DNA of 64,000 bases from Shigella phage Sf14, in the sequence record MF327003. The stretch is one strand, 5' to 3'. The notes beneath the pieces were generated by a model that was not told the origin of the DNA, did no database searches, and saw nothing but the letters and a program-made list of their open reading frames with translations. The position numbers and the translations under genes were made by a program. Shown one piece after another: positions 17,146 to 32,699 of the stretch (the first letter of the stretch is position 1; every line of letters starts with the position of its first letter).

Positions 17146-17161
17146 ATTTTAGGAGATTCCT

Positions 17162-17371
17162 ATGAAGCCTTATGGTAGACATGGTAAAGTTGAAATTGCA
17201 AGTTGTGGCTGCTGTGCAGCGCATGATGAAGAAGATTATTACAAATGGCGTACAGACCATCGTAAACGCTTTCTCAGAAGAGATAAGAAGAGAGCTAGAC
17301 AGGAATCTCAAAAGGATATTGCAGAATTAGTTCAAATGGACAGAGCAGCAACCTACGAAGTTGTTAGTTAG
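17162..17371 (+). CDS. candidate small basic Cys-containing protein (69 aa) inside tRNA island
   Basis: AGGAG 7 nt upstream of ATG; 3' end overlaps tRNA-Arg by ~50 nt so may be spurious. Confidence 0.3.
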   Translation: MKPYGRHGKVEIASCGCCAAHDEEDYYKWRTDHRKRFLRRDKKRARQESQKDIAELVQMDRAATYEVVS

Positions 17372-17397
17372 GGGTTCGAACCCTCTATTCTGCACCA
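17321..17397 (+). tRNA. tRNA-Arg (ACG)
   Basis: acceptor GCAGAAT/ATTCTGC perfect, loop CTACGAA, CCA. Confidence 0.7.
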
Positions 17398-17405
17398 AAT
17401 TTAAT

Positions 17406-17481
17406 AGGGGATTAGTTTACAAGGTTAAAACCTCGGTCTTTGAAATCGAAGAAGATGGTTCAATTCCATCATCCCCCGCCA
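17406..17481 (+). tRNA. tRNA-Gln (TTG)
   Basis: anticodon stem TCGGT/ATCGA loop CTTTGAA, weak 1-72 pair and G73, CCA. Confidence 0.65.
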
Positions 17482-17483
17482 AC

Positions 17484-17562
17484 GCTCCATTACTCCAATT
17501 GGCAGAGAGGCCAGATTTAAAATCTGTGTTATGTATCGGTTCGAATCCGATATGGAGTACCA
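17484..17562 (+). tRNA. tRNA with Leu anticodon TAA, short variable arm
   Basis: acceptor GCTCCAT/ATGGAGT, loop TTTAAAA, A73, CCA. Confidence 0.6.
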
Positions 17563-17568
17563 AATATT

Positions 17569-17644
17569 AGCAGTATAGCATAACTGGCAATGCTCCAGCC
17601 TCTGAAGCTGAAAGATTAAGGTTCAAATCCTTATACTGCTGCCA
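17569..17644 (+). tRNA. tRNA-Gln (CTG)
   Basis: acceptor AGCAGTA/TACTGCT perfect, loop CTCTGAA, CCA. Confidence 0.65.
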
Positions 17645-17647
17645 CTT

Positions 17648-17673
17648 CTAAGGGTTCTTACGAGAGTCCTTAA
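17648..17673 (+). ncRNA. hairpin motif copy C with loop GTTCTTACGAG
   Basis: stem TAAGG/CCTTA (compensatory relative to copy A) around identical 11-mer. Confidence 0.45.
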
Positions 17674-17675
17674 AT

Positions 17676-17752
17676 GTGGCCTTATCATAAATGGATAATG
17701 ACCCATACTGTGAACATGGTCTATACGGGTTCGATTCCCGTAGGTCACCCCA
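17676..17752 (+). tRNA. tRNA-His (GTG)
   Basis: loop CTGTGAA, discriminator C73, T-arm ACGGG/CCCGT, CCA; no encoded G-1. Confidence 0.6.
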
Positions 17753-17758
17753 ATTTCA

Positions 17759-17835
17759 TAGCTCAATTAGCTTATATGGTTAAAGCGCGTGTCTGAAAAA
17801 CATGAGAACAGGGTTCAAATCCCGATGGGCTACCA
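17759..17835 (+). tRNA. tRNA-Phe-like (GAA), irregular D-arm/acceptor register
   Basis: anticodon stem CGTGT/ACATG loop CTGAAAA; acceptor pairing ambiguous. Confidence 0.45.
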
Positions 17836-17851
17836 ACTTTATAGGTGCATA

Positions 17852-18586
17852 ATGAAAGAGATGACAGAACAAAGTAAAGAGATTTTTAATCTTCTTAAAA
17901 CTGGTAATGGTTTCTCAAACCCTCTTATTACTGGTGCAGCAGTTCTTGGTGGTACTATAGCTGCCTCTCAATCATTAGTTAACTCAATTAGTTCTGTAAC
18001 AGACCCAGCTACACAACAGATTTTAGTTGCTGCTGGACTGACAACAGCCTTATTAGGAAGCTTCACAACAAGCCTTGGAAGTACAACTTCAACGACAAGT
18101 ACACTTACTGAGTATGGACAAAAGTCTGTAGATGAGTTTTCACAACGTATGCAAGTAGCTAAAGGTTACTCTAACGTTATGGGAGCAGCAGGTGAACAGG
18201 TTGGATGTACACCGTTTAGCGGTATCATGGGCGTAGCTACCGAGTACGGTAATAAAGCGATGGATTTGATTAATACCTCCATAGACGCTGTAAATAGCGT
18301 TCTAAGCGATTTGCAAGATGCAATCGACCAAGGACTAGATACAATCTCTGAACTCGCTACACAGGCCGTTACAGCGATTAATGAGGGTATTGCAAAGATT
18401 ACTGCATATGCTAACGAAGTAACTCAGATGATTGCAGATGAAGCAGCACTGATTGCAGAATATCTGAAAACAAATATTAATGGTTTCCTTGCGAATGTTC
18501 TACCAAGCTGGTTTGATGATTCATGTAAAACTGGTGTGATTGATACTATCGCAACTCCAGAGATGAAAGAAGCTCTGAACAAATAA
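17852..18586 (+). CDS. glycine-zipper membrane protein with helical C-terminal domain (244 aa), embedded in tRNA island
   Basis: start trimmed to ATG 17852 (track start overlaps tRNA); hydrophobic segments LITGAAVLGGTIAAS and ILVAAGLTTALLGSF. Confidence 0.55.
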   Translation: MKEMTEQSKEIFNLLKTGNGFSNPLITGAAVLGGTIAASQSLVNSISSVTDPATQQILVAAGLTTALLGSFTTSLGSTTSTTSTLTEYGQKSVDEFSQRMQVAKGYSNVMGAAGEQVGCTPFSGIMGVATEYGNKAMDLINTSIDAVNSVLSDLQDAIDQGLDTISELATQAVTAINEGIAKITAYANEVTQMIADEAALIAEYLKTNINGFLANVLPSWFDDSCKTGVIDTIATPEMKEALNK

Positions 18587-18587
18587 T

Positions 18588-18680
18588 GGAAGATTAACCC
18601 TAAAAGGTAAGGGAGCAGTTTGCTAAACTGCCAGTAACCGAGAAATCGGCGTACCAGTTCAAGTCTGGTATCTTCCTCCA
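18588..18680 (+). tRNA. tRNA-Ser (GCT), type II
   Basis: acceptor GGAAGAT/ATCTTCC perfect, anticodon stem GCAGT/ACTGC, long variable arm, CCA. Confidence 0.8.
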
Positions 18681-18686
18681 AATTAT

Positions 18687-18762
18687 GTGTCGGTGTCAGA
18701 AATGGTTATGTGCCTGTCTGCAAAACAGGTTTATGAGGGTTCGAGTCCCTTCCGATACTCCA
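18687..18762 (+). tRNA. tRNA-Cys (GCA)
   Basis: anticodon stem CCTGT/ACAGG loop CTGCAAA, CCA. Confidence 0.75.
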
Positions 18763-27934: not shown

Positions 27935-29287
27935 ATGTGGAATCCAATTGTTAATGTAGATATTACATTGAACACAGCAGGAACTACAAGAGAAGGTTTT
28001 GGTTTACCATTATTCCTTGCTTCAACAGATAACTTTGAAGAAAGAATCCGTGGTTACACTTCATTAACAGAAGTAGCCGAAGACTTTGATGAAAGTACTG
28101 CTGCGTATAAAGCTGCAAAACAGCTATGGAGCCAAACTCCAAAAGTAACTCAACTGTATATTGGTAGAAGAACTATGCAATATACTGTTTCTATTCCTGA
28201 TACAGTGGCTGAAGGAAGTGAATATTCATTGACAGTTGCTATCGGTGGTGGTGTTTCTCAGCCATTCCAATACACTGCAAAAGAAAATGACACAGCACTT
28301 ATTGTCTTGAATGAGTTTAAATCACAGATTGAAGCAAGCCCAACAATTAAAGATGGTGTTAATGCTAGTGTAACAGGTACTGGTGCTTCTGCGACGATGA
28401 TTATTACTAAAGCTGGTGATAATGACTTCGTAAAAGTAACGTCCATTACACCTACAACGTCTATTGCAGCAACAACTGCTGACACGGCTTCCGCTGCTCT
28501 GGCATCCATTGAAACATATTCAACAGATTGGTACTTCATCTCAGCAGAAGACAGAACTCAACAGTTTGTCTTGGCAATGGCTTCAGAGATTCAGGCGCGT
28601 AAGAAGATTTTCTTCACAGCTAATGCTGACGTTAAGGCTCTGCAAGGCACTGATTTGACCTCTGCAACAGATGTTCCGGCACAGTTAGCTAAGAGCAAGT
28701 ACACTCGTACAGTTTGCTTGTGGCATCACACAGCCGAGTTTGACTACCCAGAAATGGCTTACATCGCATATGGTGCCCCATATGATGCAGGCTCAATTGC
28801 TTGGGGTAACGCCCAATTAACTGGTGTTGCAGCATCTCTACAACCTGCTAACCAGAGACCACTGATAAGCATTCAGAAGTCAGCTTTAGACACTCGTAGC
28901 TGTAACTTCATTGACCTCGATGGTGGGGTTCCTGTAGTGCGCAGAGGTATCACTTCTGGTGGTGAATGGATTGATATTGTACGTGGTGTTGATTGGCTTG
29001 AATCTGATTTGAAAACATCTCTGAGAGACTTGCTAATTAATCAGAAGGGTGGTAAGATTACTTATGATGATACTGGTATTACCCGTATTCGTCAGGTCAT
29101 TGAAACATCTCTTCAGCGAGCAGTTAACAGAAAATTTTTGTCAACTTACACCGTTACTGTTCCTAAAGCCTCACAAGTTGCATTGGCAGATAAGAAAGCA
29201 CGTATCCTGAAAGACATTACCTTCCACGGTATTCTTGCAGGGGCTATCTTGGATGTTGACTTGAAAGGCACAGTGGCTTACGAATAA
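27935..29287 (+). CDS. tail sheath protein (candidate)
   Basis: 450 aa preceding a ~150-aa tube-sized gene, chaperone pair and tape measure; synteny only. Confidence 0.4.
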   Translation: MWNPIVNVDITLNTAGTTREGFGLPLFLASTDNFEERIRGYTSLTEVAEDFDESTAAYKAAKQLWSQTPKVTQLYIGRRTMQYTVSIPDTVAEGSEYSLTVAIGGGVSQPFQYTAKENDTALIVLNEFKSQIEASPTIKDGVNASVTGTGASATMIITKAGDNDFVKVTSITPTTSIAATTADTASAALASIETYSTDWYFISAEDRTQQFVLAMASEIQARKKIFFTANADVKALQGTDLTSATDVPAQLAKSKYTRTVCLWHHTAEFDYPEMAYIAYGAPYDAGSIAWGNAQLTGVAASLQPANQRPLISIQKSALDTRSCNFIDLDGGVPVVRRGITSGGEWIDIVRGVDWLESDLKTSLRDLLINQKGGKITYDDTGITRIRQVIETSLQRAVNRKFLSTYTVTVPKASQVALADKKARILKDITFHGILAGAILDVDLKGTVAYE

Positions 29288-29301: not shown

Positions 29302-29748
29302 ATGGCTATGTATCAGCAATATTCCCCTAAAGATGTAGTTTGTAGCTGGAATGGCATTGCCATTGAAGGTTTTGCACCAGACTCATTCTTGCGTCTTCAG
29401 AGAACTTCTCCACTTGTTACGCCAGTTGTAGGTGCAGGTGGTCAAGTAGCTCTGACAAGAAATGCAGACAAGACAGGTACGATTGAGATTGAGCTAATGC
29501 AGACTTCTCTATCAAACCAGATGCTTTCTGCAATTCAAGCTAAACAAGATGACATGGAACTTGAAGAAGATATCTCATCTAACTTTGTAATTTACGACCC
29601 ATCTGGTTCAGTTCTGGCAACAGGTATTAATGCTTGGTTGCAAGAGCTTCCACAGATTGAATTAGGTCGTGACCAGAACTCGAAAACTTGGATTTTCGGT
29701 TGTGAGAAGTTAGACTACACTTCAACAATCCCTGCGTCAAGCGTTTAA
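29302..29748 (+). CDS. tail tube protein (candidate)
   Basis: 148 aa, followed by strong terminator; synteny. Confidence 0.4.
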   Translation: MAMYQQYSPKDVVCSWNGIAIEGFAPDSFLRLQRTSPLVTPVVGAGGQVALTRNADKTGTIEIELMQTSLSNQMLSAIQAKQDDMELEEDISSNFVIYDPSGSVLATGINAWLQELPQIELGRDQNSKTWIFGCEKLDYTSTIPASSV

Positions 29749-29761
29749 CAAATCCTAATAA

Positions 29762-29800
29762 GGGGGAGACTGTAAAAGGTCTTCCCCTTTTGTGTTTTTA
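29762..29800 (+). terminator. intrinsic terminator after tube gene
   Basis: GGGGGAGAC..GTCTTCCCCC stem + TTTTGTGTTTTT. Confidence 0.65.
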
Positions 29801-29824: not shown

Positions 29825-30226
29825 ATGAAGACTGAAACTAAAATGATTAACGGCAAGAAGGTAACTATTATTCTTCTTGGAGCAAGAGATGGTATCCGTA
29901 TCTCTATGAAACTTGGTAAAGCAGTTGTACCAGCATTTGCACAGATGTTCTCTGGTTTAACCTCTAAAGATGGGGAAGCTAAAATCCCATTTAAAGAACT
30001 CGTTGAAGCTTGCTTTGAAAAGGTTGACGAACTAGATATTGATGCAATGGCAGAGACACTATTTCAGGGGGCAACAGTTAACGACTTCCCACTGAAAATT
30101 GATAGTTACTTCCAAGCGAACTACGGTGAATTTATTGACTTCTTAGCTTTTGCTTTGGAGGCAAACTTCGGAAGTTTTTTCGAGGCAAGCATTTTCAAAA
30201 GCCTAACTTCTCAGCAGGAAGCTTAA
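29825..30226 (+). CDS. tail assembly chaperone (G-like)
   Basis: 133 aa immediately upstream of tape measure; contains slippery site near 3' end. Confidence 0.55.
   Translation: MKTETKMINGKKVTIILLGARDGIRISMKLGKAVVPAFAQMFSGLTSKDGEAKIPFKELVEACFEKVDELDIDAMAETLFQGATVNDFPLKIDSYFQANYGEFIDFLAFALEANFGSFFEASIFKSLTSQQEA
30175..30181 (+). promoter_or_regulatory. candidate -1 programmed frameshift site T_TTT_TTC
   Basis: canonical XXXYYYZ heptamer in chaperone frame; -1 frame open from 30181 into next ORF. Confidence 0.55.
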
Positions 30227-30234
30227 GTTATTCT

Positions 30235-30462
30235 ATGCAGACCCCGCTGACTGACGGGGCTGTAAAGGCAACTTATGATGAAGCAGATGAGATGAAATTT
30301 GTGCTTGCTATTTATGGTATGGATGGGTGTAAAGAAACACTCAACCAACTTTTTGATATGACCTTCGTTGATTTATTATCTCTACGTCAGTATTTAGAAA
30401 TCCAGAAGTCATATAAAGAAGAAATGGCTTACAACGAACTCAGAAAAGCAGGTAAAATTTAA
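30235..30462 (+). CDS. tail assembly chaperone frameshift extension (GT-like C-terminal part)
   Basis: 75-aa ORF in -1 frame relative to upstream chaperone. Confidence 0.5.
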   Translation: MQTPLTDGAVKATYDEADEMKFVLAIYGMDGCKETLNQLFDMTFVDLLSLRQYLEIQKSYKEEMAYNELRKAGKI

Positions 30463-32698
30463 TGGCACAATATACAGTTGATAGTTTTATTGTTGAACTT
30501 GGATTCAGTGAAAAGGTTATTAAGGGTTTGCAAAGAGTTGAGAAAATGGCTATGCAGTCTGCTCAACGTATCGAACGCAATATCAATAAAGCCTTTGATG
30601 TGAAGCCTAATAGAAGTTCACAAGACGCTCTAAACAGACTTGTAAAAAACGCTCAGACTGCTTCAGGCAGAATCAATAAATCCCTAAACAATGCTATGAA
30701 TTTAGATTCACAAGGTGTAAAATCACTTCGTAGATTAGAAACACAGGGTAAGAAAACAGCCAAAGAAATTAATAAGGCTCTAAGACAAGCTATGAATGTT
30801 GAAGGTAAAGTCAATGTTCGTGGTGGAGTTGGTAGAGGCCGTGGTAATACTATCCCTCCGGTTGGAGGTGGTGGTTCACCTAGAGTTAGACCTGATATTG
30901 CTCAAAGACAAATGGAAAGAATGTTTAATAACAACTTCTATTCTGGTTTGACTCGTCGTCTTGAAACAATTGGTGGACAAGGTAACCAAATGGCTACTTC
31001 CTTCAGAGGAAGCTTACAAGGAATCTATAATAAGTACAAAGGTAGTGGTAAAGTTGGTGAGTATGAGATGGAAGTTAAGAAACTCATTGACACTACCAAA
31101 CGTTGGGTTATTGCAGAAAATGCTAGACTTAAGGCAGTCAGAGAGTCAGCTTGGTTACAAGACAGAGCAAACTCTTCACTAAGACAGCTTGTAGGTGGTT
31201 TTGTTTCAGCGTATGCTATGCTGGAATTAGCTCAGAAGACTATTGATGCAGGTGTAAAGAGACAGTCTGCACAGTTAGCCTCAACAGCTATCTTTGGAGG
31301 GGATACACAGCAAGCGAGAATGTTCGCTGCTACGTTCTCTCACCAGATTGGTCAGAACTACACAGACACTATGAAGCAGTACTCAAACTTCGCTGCTGGT
31401 GCTCAACCAGAGTTAGGTTTTAAAGGGACTCAAGAGTTCTATAAGAATGCTGCTATGTTCTCACGTATTCGTGGTGCTTCTGATGAAGACTTGAAAGGTA
31501 TCATGGTTGCTTTCCAGCAAATGGCATCTAAAGGTAAGATTCAGGCTGAAGAACTTCGTGGACAGTTAGGTGACCGTTTGGCAGGTGCTGTTCAGTTATT
31601 TGCTGATGCTATTGGTAAAACTCCACAAGAACTTGACAAGATGATGAAAGATGGTCAGCTTCTTGCAAAAGACGTTCTACCAAAAGTCTCAGAAAAAATG
31701 AGAGAGCTTGTTGAAGCAGCAGGTGGTATGAATGCAGTTTCTAAGCAGACAGCTACCTCTATGGGTCAAGCAAAGGCAATGTGGGATAACACCCTTGTAG
31801 CTTTGTTTAACAACTCTAGCGAAGGTATCTCACAACTCTCTAACTCAGTTGCAATGTTCTTGCAAGGTTCCCTTGGTACATCTGAAGCACTTGGTACAGG
31901 TATTGGTTACCTTTTAAAAGGTGCTAGTAACCTTCTAGACTTCGTGACAGATATCATGTACCGCATTTCTTCATTATACTATACCTCAATGGGCTATTTC
32001 AAGGAATTAGATGCTAGTCAACAGAAACTAATCAAGGATTCTGCTGAGTTAGTTGCTACGTTCACCGCTATTGGTGTCTCAATTGCAGCTATTACAAAAG
32101 TCGCTAAAATCTTTGGTGGTACTGTAGCATTTGTCAAGAGTATCTTTGAAGAAGGTATCTTAGCTAAGATTGCACAGAAGTTTGGATTAACTACAGCAGC
32201 AGAAACAGCAGCTACAACGGCTGGTGTATCAGCAACCAGAATGGCTCTTGGTGTAGGTGGTTCTGCATTAATGTTATCTGGTTCAGTTGACAAGAATGCT
32301 GGAAAGAGATTTAACGAGGTTAACACACCTAATCCTTTCAATGAAGCTATCTCAGGAATCACTAATCCAAAACGTCCAATGTTCTTTGACCAGAATGGAC
32401 AACTTCAGTTTGCACAATATACCACAGACACTTCTGGAAATATTCAGAGAGTTGATAATGGTTTGTCAAATTGGGATATTATCATGAACAACCTGTCTGA
32501 GTCTCTAAATAACTTTGCAAACAAGTTTAACCAGACACCTATGATGATGACTCCTTCTGGACTACCATTGCAAACTAAGCAGACGCTTAACGTTTCCTTT
32601 AATCTGGATGGTAAGCAGATTGCTACTAAGATGGTGGATATCACTGATAAGAGTCAGGAAGATATTCTGTTAAACTCTAGCTACCCAGAGGATGAATA

Positions 32699-32699
<1 letters not shown>
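30462..32699 (+). CDS. tail tape measure protein
   Basis: 745 aa, helical, Gly-rich hydrophobic central segment, downstream of chaperone pair. Confidence 0.75.

What the first reader, a model, noticed from the sequence alone, without database searches (positions are those of the whole stretch)
29825..30462. Candidate -1 programmed ribosomal frameshift in the tail assembly chaperone upstream of the tape measure gene
The heptamer T_TTT_TTC at 30175-30181 lies in the 0 frame of the 29825-30226 ORF (codons AGT TTT TTC). The -1 frame is open from 30181 through the 30235-30462 ORF with no stop, so slippage would give a fusion product of about 210 aa. The position matches the conserved G/GT chaperone frameshift of tailed phages.
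Basis: partly seen in the sequence, partly recalled or inferred. Interest (0 to 1): 0.5.

Follow-up and report, generated by a model that had tools for sequence, protein, structure and literature searches.

The report
Known tail-chaperone ribosomal frameshift site
This is the ordinary, already published -1 ribosomal frameshift that lets a Felix O1-like (Mooglevirus) phage make a short and a long version of its tail assembly chaperone from one gene.

Summary
TTTTTTC (30175-30181) lies in register T_TTT_TTC (AGT TTT TTC) in the 133-codon ORF 29825-30226. The -1 frame is open from 30139 to 30462, and slippage gives a 212-aa fusion.

The ORF is a tail assembly chaperone (Pfam Phage_TAC_15, E 7.5e-20). 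It lies between the sheath and tube genes and the 745-aa tape measure gene.

The window is 99.8% identical to Shigella phage Sf16 (Mooglevirus, Ounavirinae, Andersonviridae).

- AGT TTT TTC is invariant in every relative fetched, covering 14 distinct local sequence contexts and fusion identity down to 38%.
- It sits at the sharpest peak of synonymous-site conservation in the gene.
- Kolesnikvirus relatives keep the -1 protein sequence but have no ATG, GTG or TTG in its first ~50 codons, so they can only express it by frameshifting.

The frameshift is already in GenBank as a joined CDS for phages Michonne, Mijalis and Mushroom, with the same FF|RGKHF junction in the deposited 212-aa Moogle and Michonne proteins. 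It is stated in three genome announcements and in a 2025 family-wide analysis.

No stimulatory structure exists at the canonical spacing. A GGAGG lies 13 nt upstream in 9 of 14 contexts. A conserved hairpin lies 51 nt downstream, and its role is unknown.

Verdict: real, supported, already known, low interest. No protein-level evidence was found for this lineage.

The parts
27935..29287 (+). Tail sheath gene (context)
   Evidence: phrog_205 tail sheath, E 6.9e-117; Pfam DUF3383
29302..29748 (+). Tail tube gene (context)
   Evidence: phrog_280, E 1.9e-47; Pfam KPP10_Orf10, listed as Phage_Tube_PhiTE for the homologue
29760..29789 (+). Intrinsic-terminator-like hairpin followed by a T run, between the tube gene and the chaperone gene
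   Evidence: 12-bp stem then TTGTGTTTTT. The homologous site is annotated 'terminator' in the Michonne and Mijalis records.
29825..30226 (+). 0-frame chaperone ORF (TAC-N, the lambda-G equivalent), 133 aa, 14.7 kDa
   Evidence: Pfam Phage_TAC_15, E 7.5e-20; phrog_1613, E 1.8e-48. AlphaFold model with pLDDT 80. It matches annotated myophage TACs in BFVD.
30157..30161 (+). Internal Shine-Dalgarno-like GGAGG, 13 nt 5' of the heptamer (candidate dnaX-type stimulator; inferred)
   Evidence: Only 17 GGAGG occur on the + strand of the 64-kb window. It is present with the same 13-nt spacer in 9 of 14 distinct relative contexts and absent in 5. The stimulatory spacing for -1 shifts is 9-14 nt (PMC5009743).
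30175..30181 (+). Slippery heptamer T_TTT_TTC (slip site)
   Evidence: In register AGT|TTT|TTC. Invariant in all relatives. The GenBank note 'ribosomal slippage (47149)' in Michonne maps to about window position 30178.
30181..30462 (+). -1 frame extension (T-like domain, 93 codons plus stop). With 29825-30181 it gives the 212-aa fusion (TAC-NC, the GT equivalent).
   Evidence: The frame is open. phrog_4963, E 2.4e-51. The amino-acid sequence is conserved in the -1 frame across lineages that lack any start codon. The junction FF|RGKHF is identical to deposited 212-aa proteins AIW03804.1 and AKU44019.1.
30181..30226 (+). Dual-coding overlap (0 frame EASIFKSLTSQQEA*, -1 frame RGKHFQKPNFSAGS...)
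   Evidence: Third-codon-position conservation is 0.96-0.99 at codons 117-123 and stays at or above 0.86 to about codon 128. The background is mostly 0.55-0.75.
30235..30462 (+). ORF2 as called by ORF finders (ATG start, 75 aa). It is probably not an independent gene.
   Evidence: The ATG is replaced by CTA in Felixounavirus. It is absent in Kolesnikvirus, L043 and L044. The ATG is base-paired inside the hairpin below.
30233..30267 (+). Conserved RNA hairpin inside the -1 extension, 51 nt 3' of the heptamer and 6 nt 3' of the ORF1 stop. An outer helix pairs 30222-30227 with 30272-30277. Role unknown.
   Evidence: dG -17.5 kcal/mol, z -3.6. RNAalifold gives 17 pairs, 5 with compensatory changes. 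98% of cells are paired, against 21-59% when the partners are slid.
30462..32699 (+). Tape measure protein gene. Its ATG overlaps the stop of the -1 extension (TAATG).
   Evidence: phrog_4036, E 0; Pfam TMP_3, E 4.3e-17; sequence

Best explanation
This is the programmed -1 ribosomal frameshift of the tail assembly chaperone gene of a Mooglevirus (Felix O1-like myophage).

Most ribosomes read 29825-30226 and release the 133-aa chaperone (TAC-N, the equivalent of lambda gpG).

A minority slip when the two tRNA-Phe sit on UUU (P site) and UUC (A site) of U_UUU_UUC. Both re-pair one base back on UUU UUU. Reading then continues with CGA in the -1 frame to 30462, giving a 212-aa protein (TAC-NC, the gpGT equivalent) that shares its first 119 residues with the short form.

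By analogy with lambda G/GT, the common N-domain coats the tape measure protein and the rare C-terminal T-domain recruits the tube protein. The slip frequency would then set the stoichiometry needed for tail assembly.

Shown here: the sequence signal, its strict conservation, the gene order and family, and the dependence of the -1 ORF on the shift in relatives.

Inferred: the actual slippage, its efficiency and the division of labour between the two domains.

No 3' structure exists at stimulatory distance, so the shift probably relies on the intrinsically shift-prone heptamer. In this lineage an internal GGAGG 13 nt upstream may help.
For: - Register, open -1 frame and 212-aa product.
- TAC family and sheath-tube-TAC-TMP gene order.
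- AGT TTT TTC is invariant in 14 distinct local contexts drawn from about 40 fetched loci. Fusion identity goes down to 38%: Mooglevirus, SUSP-type phages, Felixounavirus, Kolesnikvirus, Arno18, a Yersinia P778-like contig and metagenomic L044 and L045.
- The strongest synonymous-site conservation of the whole fusion sits at the slip site and the dual-coding overlap.
- The -1 protein is conserved (CKET..F.D..LR.FLE..SYKEE) although Kolesnikvirus has no ATG, GTG or TTG in the first ~50 codons, and L043 and L044 lack a plausible start.
- Annotators and gene callers leave a gap of about 240 nt there.
- Indels in the linker are multiples of three.
- GenBank joined CDSs carry the same junction.
- Published statements: PMC4319497, PMC4591319, PMC5543628 and PMC12846349.
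- U_UU.U_UU.C belongs to the efficient H_HH.U_UU.Y class in E. coli, shifts at more than 0.1% without stimulators and is used by IS elements (PMC4066793).
Against: - There is no protein-level evidence (mass spectrometry, western blot or reporter) for this phage or its family in the searched library.
- In this phage the -1 ORF also has its own ATG (30235), 8 nt after the ORF1 stop, with an AGGAAG 12 nt upstream. Some independent or re-initiated translation of a 75-aa product cannot be excluded.
- No 3' stimulator exists at 5-9 nt, and the upstream GGAGG is missing in 5 of 14 contexts. The efficiency therefore cannot be predicted.
Confidence: 0.9

Rival explanations
1. These are two separate genes. 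ORF2 (30235-30462) would be translated on its own from its ATG, by independent initiation or by termination-reinitiation after the ORF1 stop 8 nt upstream. No functionally relevant fusion would be made. This is how the nearest GenBank record, Sf16, annotates it.
For: ATG at 30235, with AGGAAG at 30217-30222 (12-nt spacer) and the ORF1 stop at 30224-30226. Sf16, Felix O1 RefSeq and many other records list two CDSs.
Against: - The ATG is not conserved. It is CTA in Felixounavirus, whose alternative upstream ATG is ATA in L025.
- No start codon exists at all in Kolesnikvirus, and none is plausible in L043 or L044, yet the -1 protein is conserved.
- The 18 -1-frame codons between the slip site and the ATG stay open and conserved (RGKHFQKP) in all lineages.
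- The ATG is paired within a stable conserved hairpin.
Confidence: 0.06
2. Transcriptional slippage. RNA polymerase would slip on the T6 run and produce mRNAs with one base fewer or two more. Standard translation of those mRNAs would yield the fusion.
For: A homopolymeric T6 run is present. The protein product would be indistinguishable at the amino-acid level.
Against: - Productive transcriptional slippage in bacteria is described for runs of about 9 A or T (PMC5009743). Six T is short.
- The run is never lengthened in any relative, although an extra T at 30181 would also create a -1 stop, so this point is weak.
- More distant homologues (PAK_P3; Vandenendeviridae) keep only GTTTTT.
Confidence: 0.03
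3. Chance heptamer. The T run would merely encode Ser-Phe-Phe and the open -1 frame would be fortuitous.
For: S-F-F is conserved at the protein level, which by itself constrains part of the sequence.
Against: - The synonymous choices AGT (1 of 6 Ser codons) and TTT are invariant across sequences only 38-50% identical. Third positions elsewhere vary freely.
- Only about 0.06 such heptamers are expected in the overlap zone.
- The conserved -1 ORF ends exactly at the tape measure start in every lineage.
Confidence: 0.01

Closest known systems
Tape measure chaperone frameshift of Citrobacter phages Moogle, Michonne, Mordin and Mijalis (Mooglevirus). GenBank joined CDSs AIW03804.1 and AKU44019.1; PMC4319497, PMC4591319, PMC5543628.
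   Same: Same genus and about 91% DNA identity. The heptamer, flanks, junction (…NFGSFF|RGKHFQ…) and product length (212 aa, 96% identical) are all the same.
   Different: Eight amino-acid differences from the Moogle fusion. The exact 212-aa sequence of this window is not in the protein collection, because the Sf13-Sf19-type records annotate two separate CDSs.
Family-wide conserved GTTTTT frameshift motif in TAC-N genes of Andersonviridae and Vandenendeviridae (Pseudomonas phage Adele paper, PMC12846349, 2025)
   Same: The comparative argument is the same: an uninterrupted -1 frame and an invariant T-run near the 3' end of TAC-N. It is stated explicitly for 231 Andersonviridae phages, the family that contains this window's genus.
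   Different: In Vandenendeviridae (e.g. PAK_P3, L036) the site is TCG GTT TTT CAA (G_GTT_TTT), which is not a canonical X_XXY_YYZ. Here it is the canonical T_TTT_TTC.
Bacteriophage lambda G/GT (Levin et al. 1993; Xu, Hendrix & Duda 2004, 2013, 2014; summarised in PMC5009743)
   Same: [quoted passage not shown] The short and long products share an N-terminus. [quoted passage not shown]
   Different: There is no detectable sequence similarity, and this is a contractile-tail phage. From memory, the lambda slip site is G_GGA_AAG, whereas here it is T_TTT_TTC. The 30:1 ratio and the domain functions were measured for lambda only.
Phage P2 E / E+E' (myophage counterpart; Christie et al. 2002, cited from memory; PMC5009743 notes 2-3-fold higher efficiency in P2-like phages)
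   Same: Myophage with sheath-tube-chaperone-tape measure order and a T-rich -1 slip site. From memory the P2 site is TTTTTTG.
   Different: Different protein family. No similarity was found by sequence or by fold search.
E. coli dnaX -1 frameshift signal (SD + A_AAA_AAG + 3' stem-loop)
   Same: A heptamer plus an internal SD-like GGAGG 13 nt upstream, which is within the 9-14 nt range.
   Different: There is no 3' stem-loop at 5-9 nt. The SD-like element is not conserved in all lineages. The expected efficiency is low rather than 50%.

Membership tests
G/GT-type tail assembly chaperone with conserved -1 PRF (Xu, Hendrix & Duda 2004) | The gene lies between the major tail/tube gene and the tape measure gene | tested here: met
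   The order is sheath 27935-29287, tube 29302-29748, TAC 29825-30462, TMP 30462-32699
G/GT-type tail assembly chaperone with conserved -1 PRF (Xu, Hendrix & Duda 2004) | Two overlapping reading frames, with the downstream one in the -1 frame and open from the slip site | tested here: met
   ORF2 is in the -1 frame, which is open from 30139 to 30462
G/GT-type tail assembly chaperone with conserved -1 PRF (Xu, Hendrix & Duda 2004) | In-register slippery heptamer X_XXY_YYZ within the overlap | tested here: met
   T_TTT_TTC at 30175-30181, codons AGT TTT TTC
G/GT-type tail assembly chaperone with conserved -1 PRF (Xu, Hendrix & Duda 2004) | Slip site and two-frame architecture conserved in diverged relatives | tested here: met
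   Invariant in 14 distinct contexts down to 38% fusion identity. The -1 ORF is conserved without a start codon in several lineages.
G/GT-type tail assembly chaperone with conserved -1 PRF (Xu, Hendrix & Duda 2004) | Two protein products sharing an N-terminus, with the long one a minor species | not testable with these tools
   This needs a western blot, mass spectrometry or a reporter assay. No such data were found in the library.
G/GT-type tail assembly chaperone with conserved -1 PRF (Xu, Hendrix & Duda 2004) | Both products required for tail assembly and absent from virions | not testable with these tools
   Requires genetics and virion proteomics
Pfam PF21822 Phage_TAC_15 / PHROG 1613 + 4963 | Sequence match above the curated threshold | tested here: met
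   72.2 bits against a cut-off of 22. phrog_1613, E 1.8e-48; phrog_4963, E 2.4e-51.
Solved tail assembly chaperone folds (PDB) | Structural similarity of the N-domain model to an experimentally solved TAC | tested here: inconclusive
   [not shown]
dnaX-type -1 PRF signal | Internal Shine-Dalgarno-like sequence 9-14 nt 5' of the heptamer | tested here: inconclusive
   GGAGG is present at 13 nt in this window and in 9 of 14 contexts, and absent in 5. The spacing rule comes from PMC5009743. No functional test was possible.
dnaX-type -1 PRF signal | Stable stem-loop or pseudoknot starting 5-9 nt 3' of the heptamer | tested here: not met
   Folds of 30182-30270 and 30140-30300 give z -0.9 and -1.2. 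RNAalifold on 10 diverse relatives gives 0 pairs. There is no Rfam match. The only conserved hairpin starts 51 nt downstream.

The most novel reading that the evidence does not exclude
The shift site would be embedded in a lineage-specific regulatory context that has not been described.

- An internal GGAGG exactly 13 nt upstream would tune slip frequency, dnaX-style.
- A covarying hairpin (30233-30267) lies immediately after the 0-frame stop and buries the -1-frame AUG. It might suppress stand-alone synthesis of the T-domain, or stabilise the sparsely translated roughly 240-nt stretch ahead of the tape measure gene.

Either would be a modest refinement of how G:GT stoichiometry is enforced in Felix O1-like phages.
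Probability: 0.25. Interest if true: 0.3.

Novelty: already known. Interest (0 to 1): 0.1.

Why it matters
For biology it matters little. The finding confirms a textbook recoding event in one more genome of a genus where it is already annotated and published.

The practical value is in annotation. The closest public records (the Sf13-Sf19 series, Felix O1 RefSeq and many others) list two separate 'chaperone' CDSs. Kolesnikvirus records leave a gap of about 240 nt. A joined CDS, 29825..30181 plus 30181..30462, would be the correct model.

The invariant AGT TTT TTC and the start-less -1 ORFs make this family a clean positive control for frameshift-prediction tools. The upstream GGAGG and the downstream hairpin are cheap to test in a dual-reporter assay.

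Tried and rejected
- **Canonical 3' stimulator.** MFE folds of 30182-30270 and 30140-30300 are not more stable than shuffles (z -0.9 and -1.2). RNAalifold on 10 diverse relatives gives no pairs. Rfam gives only a sub-threshold GibS hit over the terminator. Rejected.
- **GGAAGTT/AACTTC pairing around the slip site.** It appears in the MFE fold, but the 3' arm is absent in Kolesnikvirus. Rejected.
- **Structure prediction of the 212-aa fusion.** Only the N-domain was modelled.
- **PDB searches.** The PDB sequence search found nothing meaningful. Foldseek against PDB gave no significant hit.
- **Protein database search with the fusion.** It returned only 123-136-aa TAC-N entries among its 86 hits, because gene callers do not model the shift. 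It was useful only for alignment depth and for three extra lineages.
- **Literature searches.** 'TTTTTTC + frameshift + tail assembly chaperone' and 'Ounavirinae + frameshift + tail assembly chaperone' returned nothing. The single 'Felixounavirus + frameshift' paper concerns host mutations, not this site.
- **GGAGG as a universal stimulator.** Rejected, because 5 of 14 contexts lack it.

Full report
**1. Observation**

- ORF1 runs 29825-30226 (ATG to TAA, 133 aa).
- TTTTTTC occupies 30175-30181, and the 0-frame codons are AGT (30173), TTT (30176) and TTC (30179). The heptamer is therefore in the canonical X_XXY_YYZ register, T_TTT_TTC.
- ORF2 (30235-30462, 75 aa) lies in the -1 frame.
- That frame is open from 30139 (after a TGA at 30136) to the TAA at 30460-30462.
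- A tandem -1 slip gives MKTE…ANFGSFF|RGKHFQKPNFSAGSLSYSMQTPL…AGKI, 212 aa and 23.8 kDa. The 0-frame product is 14.7 kDa.
- The stop of the extension overlaps the ATG of the next gene (TAATG at 30460-30464).

In-register slippery heptamers (Y = A/T) occur at 0.00215 per codon in the window's long ORFs. About 0.06 are therefore expected in the 29-codon zone where both frames are open. Among the 37 found, this is the only one on a credible gene that sits near the end of its ORF with a long -1 continuation reaching the next gene.

**2. What the genes are**

- ORF1 matches Pfam Phage_TAC_15 (72 bits against a cut-off of 22) and PHROG 1613 'tail assembly chaperone'.
- ORF2 matches PHROG 4963 'tail assembly chaperone'.
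- Upstream are the tail sheath (phrog_205) and tube (phrog_280) genes.
- Downstream is a 745-aa tape measure protein (phrog_4036, Pfam TMP_3).
- A terminator-like hairpin (29760-29789) separates the tube gene from the chaperone gene. The homologous site is annotated as a terminator in the relatives.
- An AlphaFold model of ORF1 (pLDDT 80) has a β-hairpin followed by long helices. It matches annotated tail assembly chaperones of other myophages in the viral structure library.

**3. Where the window comes from**

The 4.9-kb region is 99.8% identical to Shigella phage Sf16. It is 99% identical to Sf15 and Sf17-Sf19, and about 91% identical to Citrobacter phages Moogle, Mijalis, Michonne and Mordin. 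The genus is Mooglevirus, in the Ounavirinae subfamily of the Andersonviridae family.

**4. Comparative test of the frameshift**

I fetched about 40 homologous loci.

*The heptamer is invariant.*
- Every Andersonviridae-type relative carries AGT TTT TTC at the homologous codons. There are 14 distinct 75-nt contexts.
- The lineages are Mooglevirus, two intermediate lineages (L007, L008), SUSP-type phages, Felixounavirus, Kolesnikvirus, L032, Pectobacterium phage Arno18, a Yersinia P778-like contig, and L044 and L045.
- Fusion protein identity falls as low as 38%.

*The slip site is the conservation peak.* In a codon alignment of ten representatives, third-position conservation is mostly 0.55-0.75 along the gene. 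It rises to 0.96-0.99 at codons 117-123, which cover the slip site and the start of the dual-coding overlap. This is the sharpest peak in the whole 212-codon fusion.

*The -1 extension is a conserved protein.* It carries the pattern …CKET..L..M.F.D...LR.FLE...SYKEE…. Indels in the linker are multiples of three.

*ORF2's start codon is not conserved.*
- Felixounavirus has CTA at that position. Its alternative ATG five codons upstream is ATA in L025.
- Kolesnikvirus phages have no ATG, GTG or TTG in the first ~50 codons of the extension.
- L043 and L044 have no plausible start either.
- Annotators and gene callers accordingly leave a gap of about 240 nt between the chaperone and the tape measure gene in these genomes.

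A conserved protein-coding frame that lacks a start codon and begins at an invariant slippery heptamer is strong comparative evidence for obligatory -1 frameshifting.

**5. Prior knowledge**

- GenBank records of Michonne (note 'ribosomal slippage (47149)', which maps to about window position 30178), Mijalis and the Felixounavirus Mushroom carry joined CDSs.
- NCBI and UniProt hold 212-aa products for Moogle/Mijalis (AIW03804.1, A0A0A0RQ75) and Michonne/Mordin (AKU44019.1). Their junction is the one deduced here, and the Moogle protein is 96% identical to this window's fusion.
- The genome announcements of Moogle, Michonne and Mijalis state the frameshift and cite Xu, Hendrix & Duda 2004.
- A 2025 paper on Pseudomonas phage Adele aligned the locus in 231 Andersonviridae phages. 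It reported the conserved GTTTTT motif as the -1 slip site, 'already suspected … in Mooglevirus genome annotations'.
- The exact 212-aa sequence of this window is not deposited, only because the Sf13-Sf19-type records annotate two CDSs.
- I found no protein-level demonstration for this family.

**6. Mechanism**

*The slip itself (inferred).* Tandem slippage of two tRNA-Phe from UUU-UUC to UUU-UUU is the simplest model. Sharma et al. place U_UU.U_UU.C in the efficient H_HH.U_UU.Y class in E. coli. They report more than 0.1% shifting without stimulators, under-representation in genes, and use by IS elements.

*Stimulators.*
- There is no 3' structure at the canonical 5-9 nt spacing. Fold z-scores are -0.9 and -1.2, RNAalifold on ten diverse relatives finds no pairs, and Rfam has no match.
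- A GGAGG lies 13 nt upstream of the heptamer. This is inside the 9-14 nt range in which internal Shine-Dalgarno sequences stimulate -1 shifts.
- GGAGG is rare, with 17 copies on the + strand of the 64-kb window.
- It is kept with the same spacer in 9 of 14 contexts despite synonymous changes around it (TTG/CTG, GCA/GCT/GCG). It is absent in Kolesnikvirus, L032, L043 and L045.
- It is therefore a plausible lineage-specific enhancer, and it is not an essential part of the signal.

*Function of the two products (inferred).* By analogy with lambda, the G-part binds the tape measure protein, the T-part recruits the tube protein, and the ratio is about 30:1. This division of labour is inferred, not tested.

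**7. Rivals**

- *Independent translation of ORF2.* This cannot be fully excluded for this phage, because an ATG lies 8 nt after the ORF1 stop and an AGGAAG lies 12 nt upstream. It cannot explain the start-less relatives or the conserved -1 codons upstream of the ATG. The ATG is also buried in a stable hairpin.
- *Transcriptional slippage.* This is unlikely on a run of only six T.
- *Chance.* This is excluded by conservation.

**8.

- A hairpin at 30233-30267, with an outer helix pairing 30222-30227 and 30272-30277, is significantly stable (-17.5 kcal/mol, z -3.6; z -3.4 to -4.5 in relatives).
- It is conserved in the Moogle, SUSP and Felix lineages. RNAalifold gives 17 pairs, 5 of them with compensatory changes. 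98% of cells are paired, against 21-59% when the partners are slid. The number of independent evolutionary events behind this is small.
- L044 has a stronger hairpin at the same place. L043, L045 and Kolesnikvirus show none.
- It starts 51 nt after the heptamer, too far to act as a classical stimulator, and just after the 0-frame stop. Its function is unknown.

**9. Verdict**

The feature is already known: it is annotated in congeners, published, and described family-wide. Interest is low.

The residual value lies in annotation, where a joined CDS should replace the two CDSs of the Sf-series records. Two small untested elements, the upstream GGAGG and the downstream hairpin, may modulate expression.

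Noticed in passing
window 30222-30277 (core 30233-30267): A conserved, covarying RNA hairpin lies inside the -1 extension, 6 nt after the ORF1 stop and 51 nt after the slip site. It buries ORF2's AUG. It is present in the Moogle, SUSP and Felix lineages and, with different sequence, in L044. It is absent in L043, L045 and Kolesnikvirus. Function unknown.
   Followed up: partly
window 30157-30161: An internal Shine-Dalgarno-like GGAGG lies 13 nt 5' of the heptamer. It is kept in 9 of 14 relative contexts with an identical spacer. It is a possible dnaX-like stimulator.
   Followed up: partly
[not shown]
   Followed up: partly
L036 (Pseudomonas phage PAK_P3, NC_022970) 1474-2102: The distant homologue keeps the TAC / -1 ORF / TMP layout, but the homologous site is TCG GTT TTT CAA (G_GTT_TTT), which is not a canonical X_XXY_YYZ heptamer. 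RefSeq annotates the -1 ORF as a separate hypothetical protein. This agrees with the GTTTTT motif reported in PMC12846349.
   Followed up: partly
window 29760-29789: An intrinsic-terminator-like hairpin with a T tract lies between the tube gene and the chaperone gene. It probably lowers transcription of the chaperone and tape measure genes relative to the sheath and tube genes. The homologous site is annotated as a terminator in Michonne and Mijalis.
   Followed up: partly
window 14151-18762: A cluster of 25 tRNA genes includes a phage-encoded tRNA-Phe (GAA) at 17760-17835. This tRNA species decodes both codons of the slip site.
   Followed up: no
window ~349-375, ~941-970, ~1265-1290: Three copies of a near-identical GC-rich hairpin motif (AACGGGGAGGGAGACTTCCCCAC…) turned up in the GGAGG census. 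They are probably repeated terminators or regulatory stem-loops in another part of the genome.
   Followed up: no
public records seen: Annotation is inconsistent for this locus.
- The Sf13-Sf19 series and Felix O1 RefSeq list two separate CDSs.
- Kolesnikvirus records leave a gap of about 240 nt.
- Some records name TAC-N 'head closure protein' (C600M2) or 'tape measure protein' (Sf13, BPSELC-1).
- GU169904 'Staphylococcus phage SA1' contains a Felix O1-like chaperone gene, which suggests a chimeric or contaminated record.
   Followed up: no
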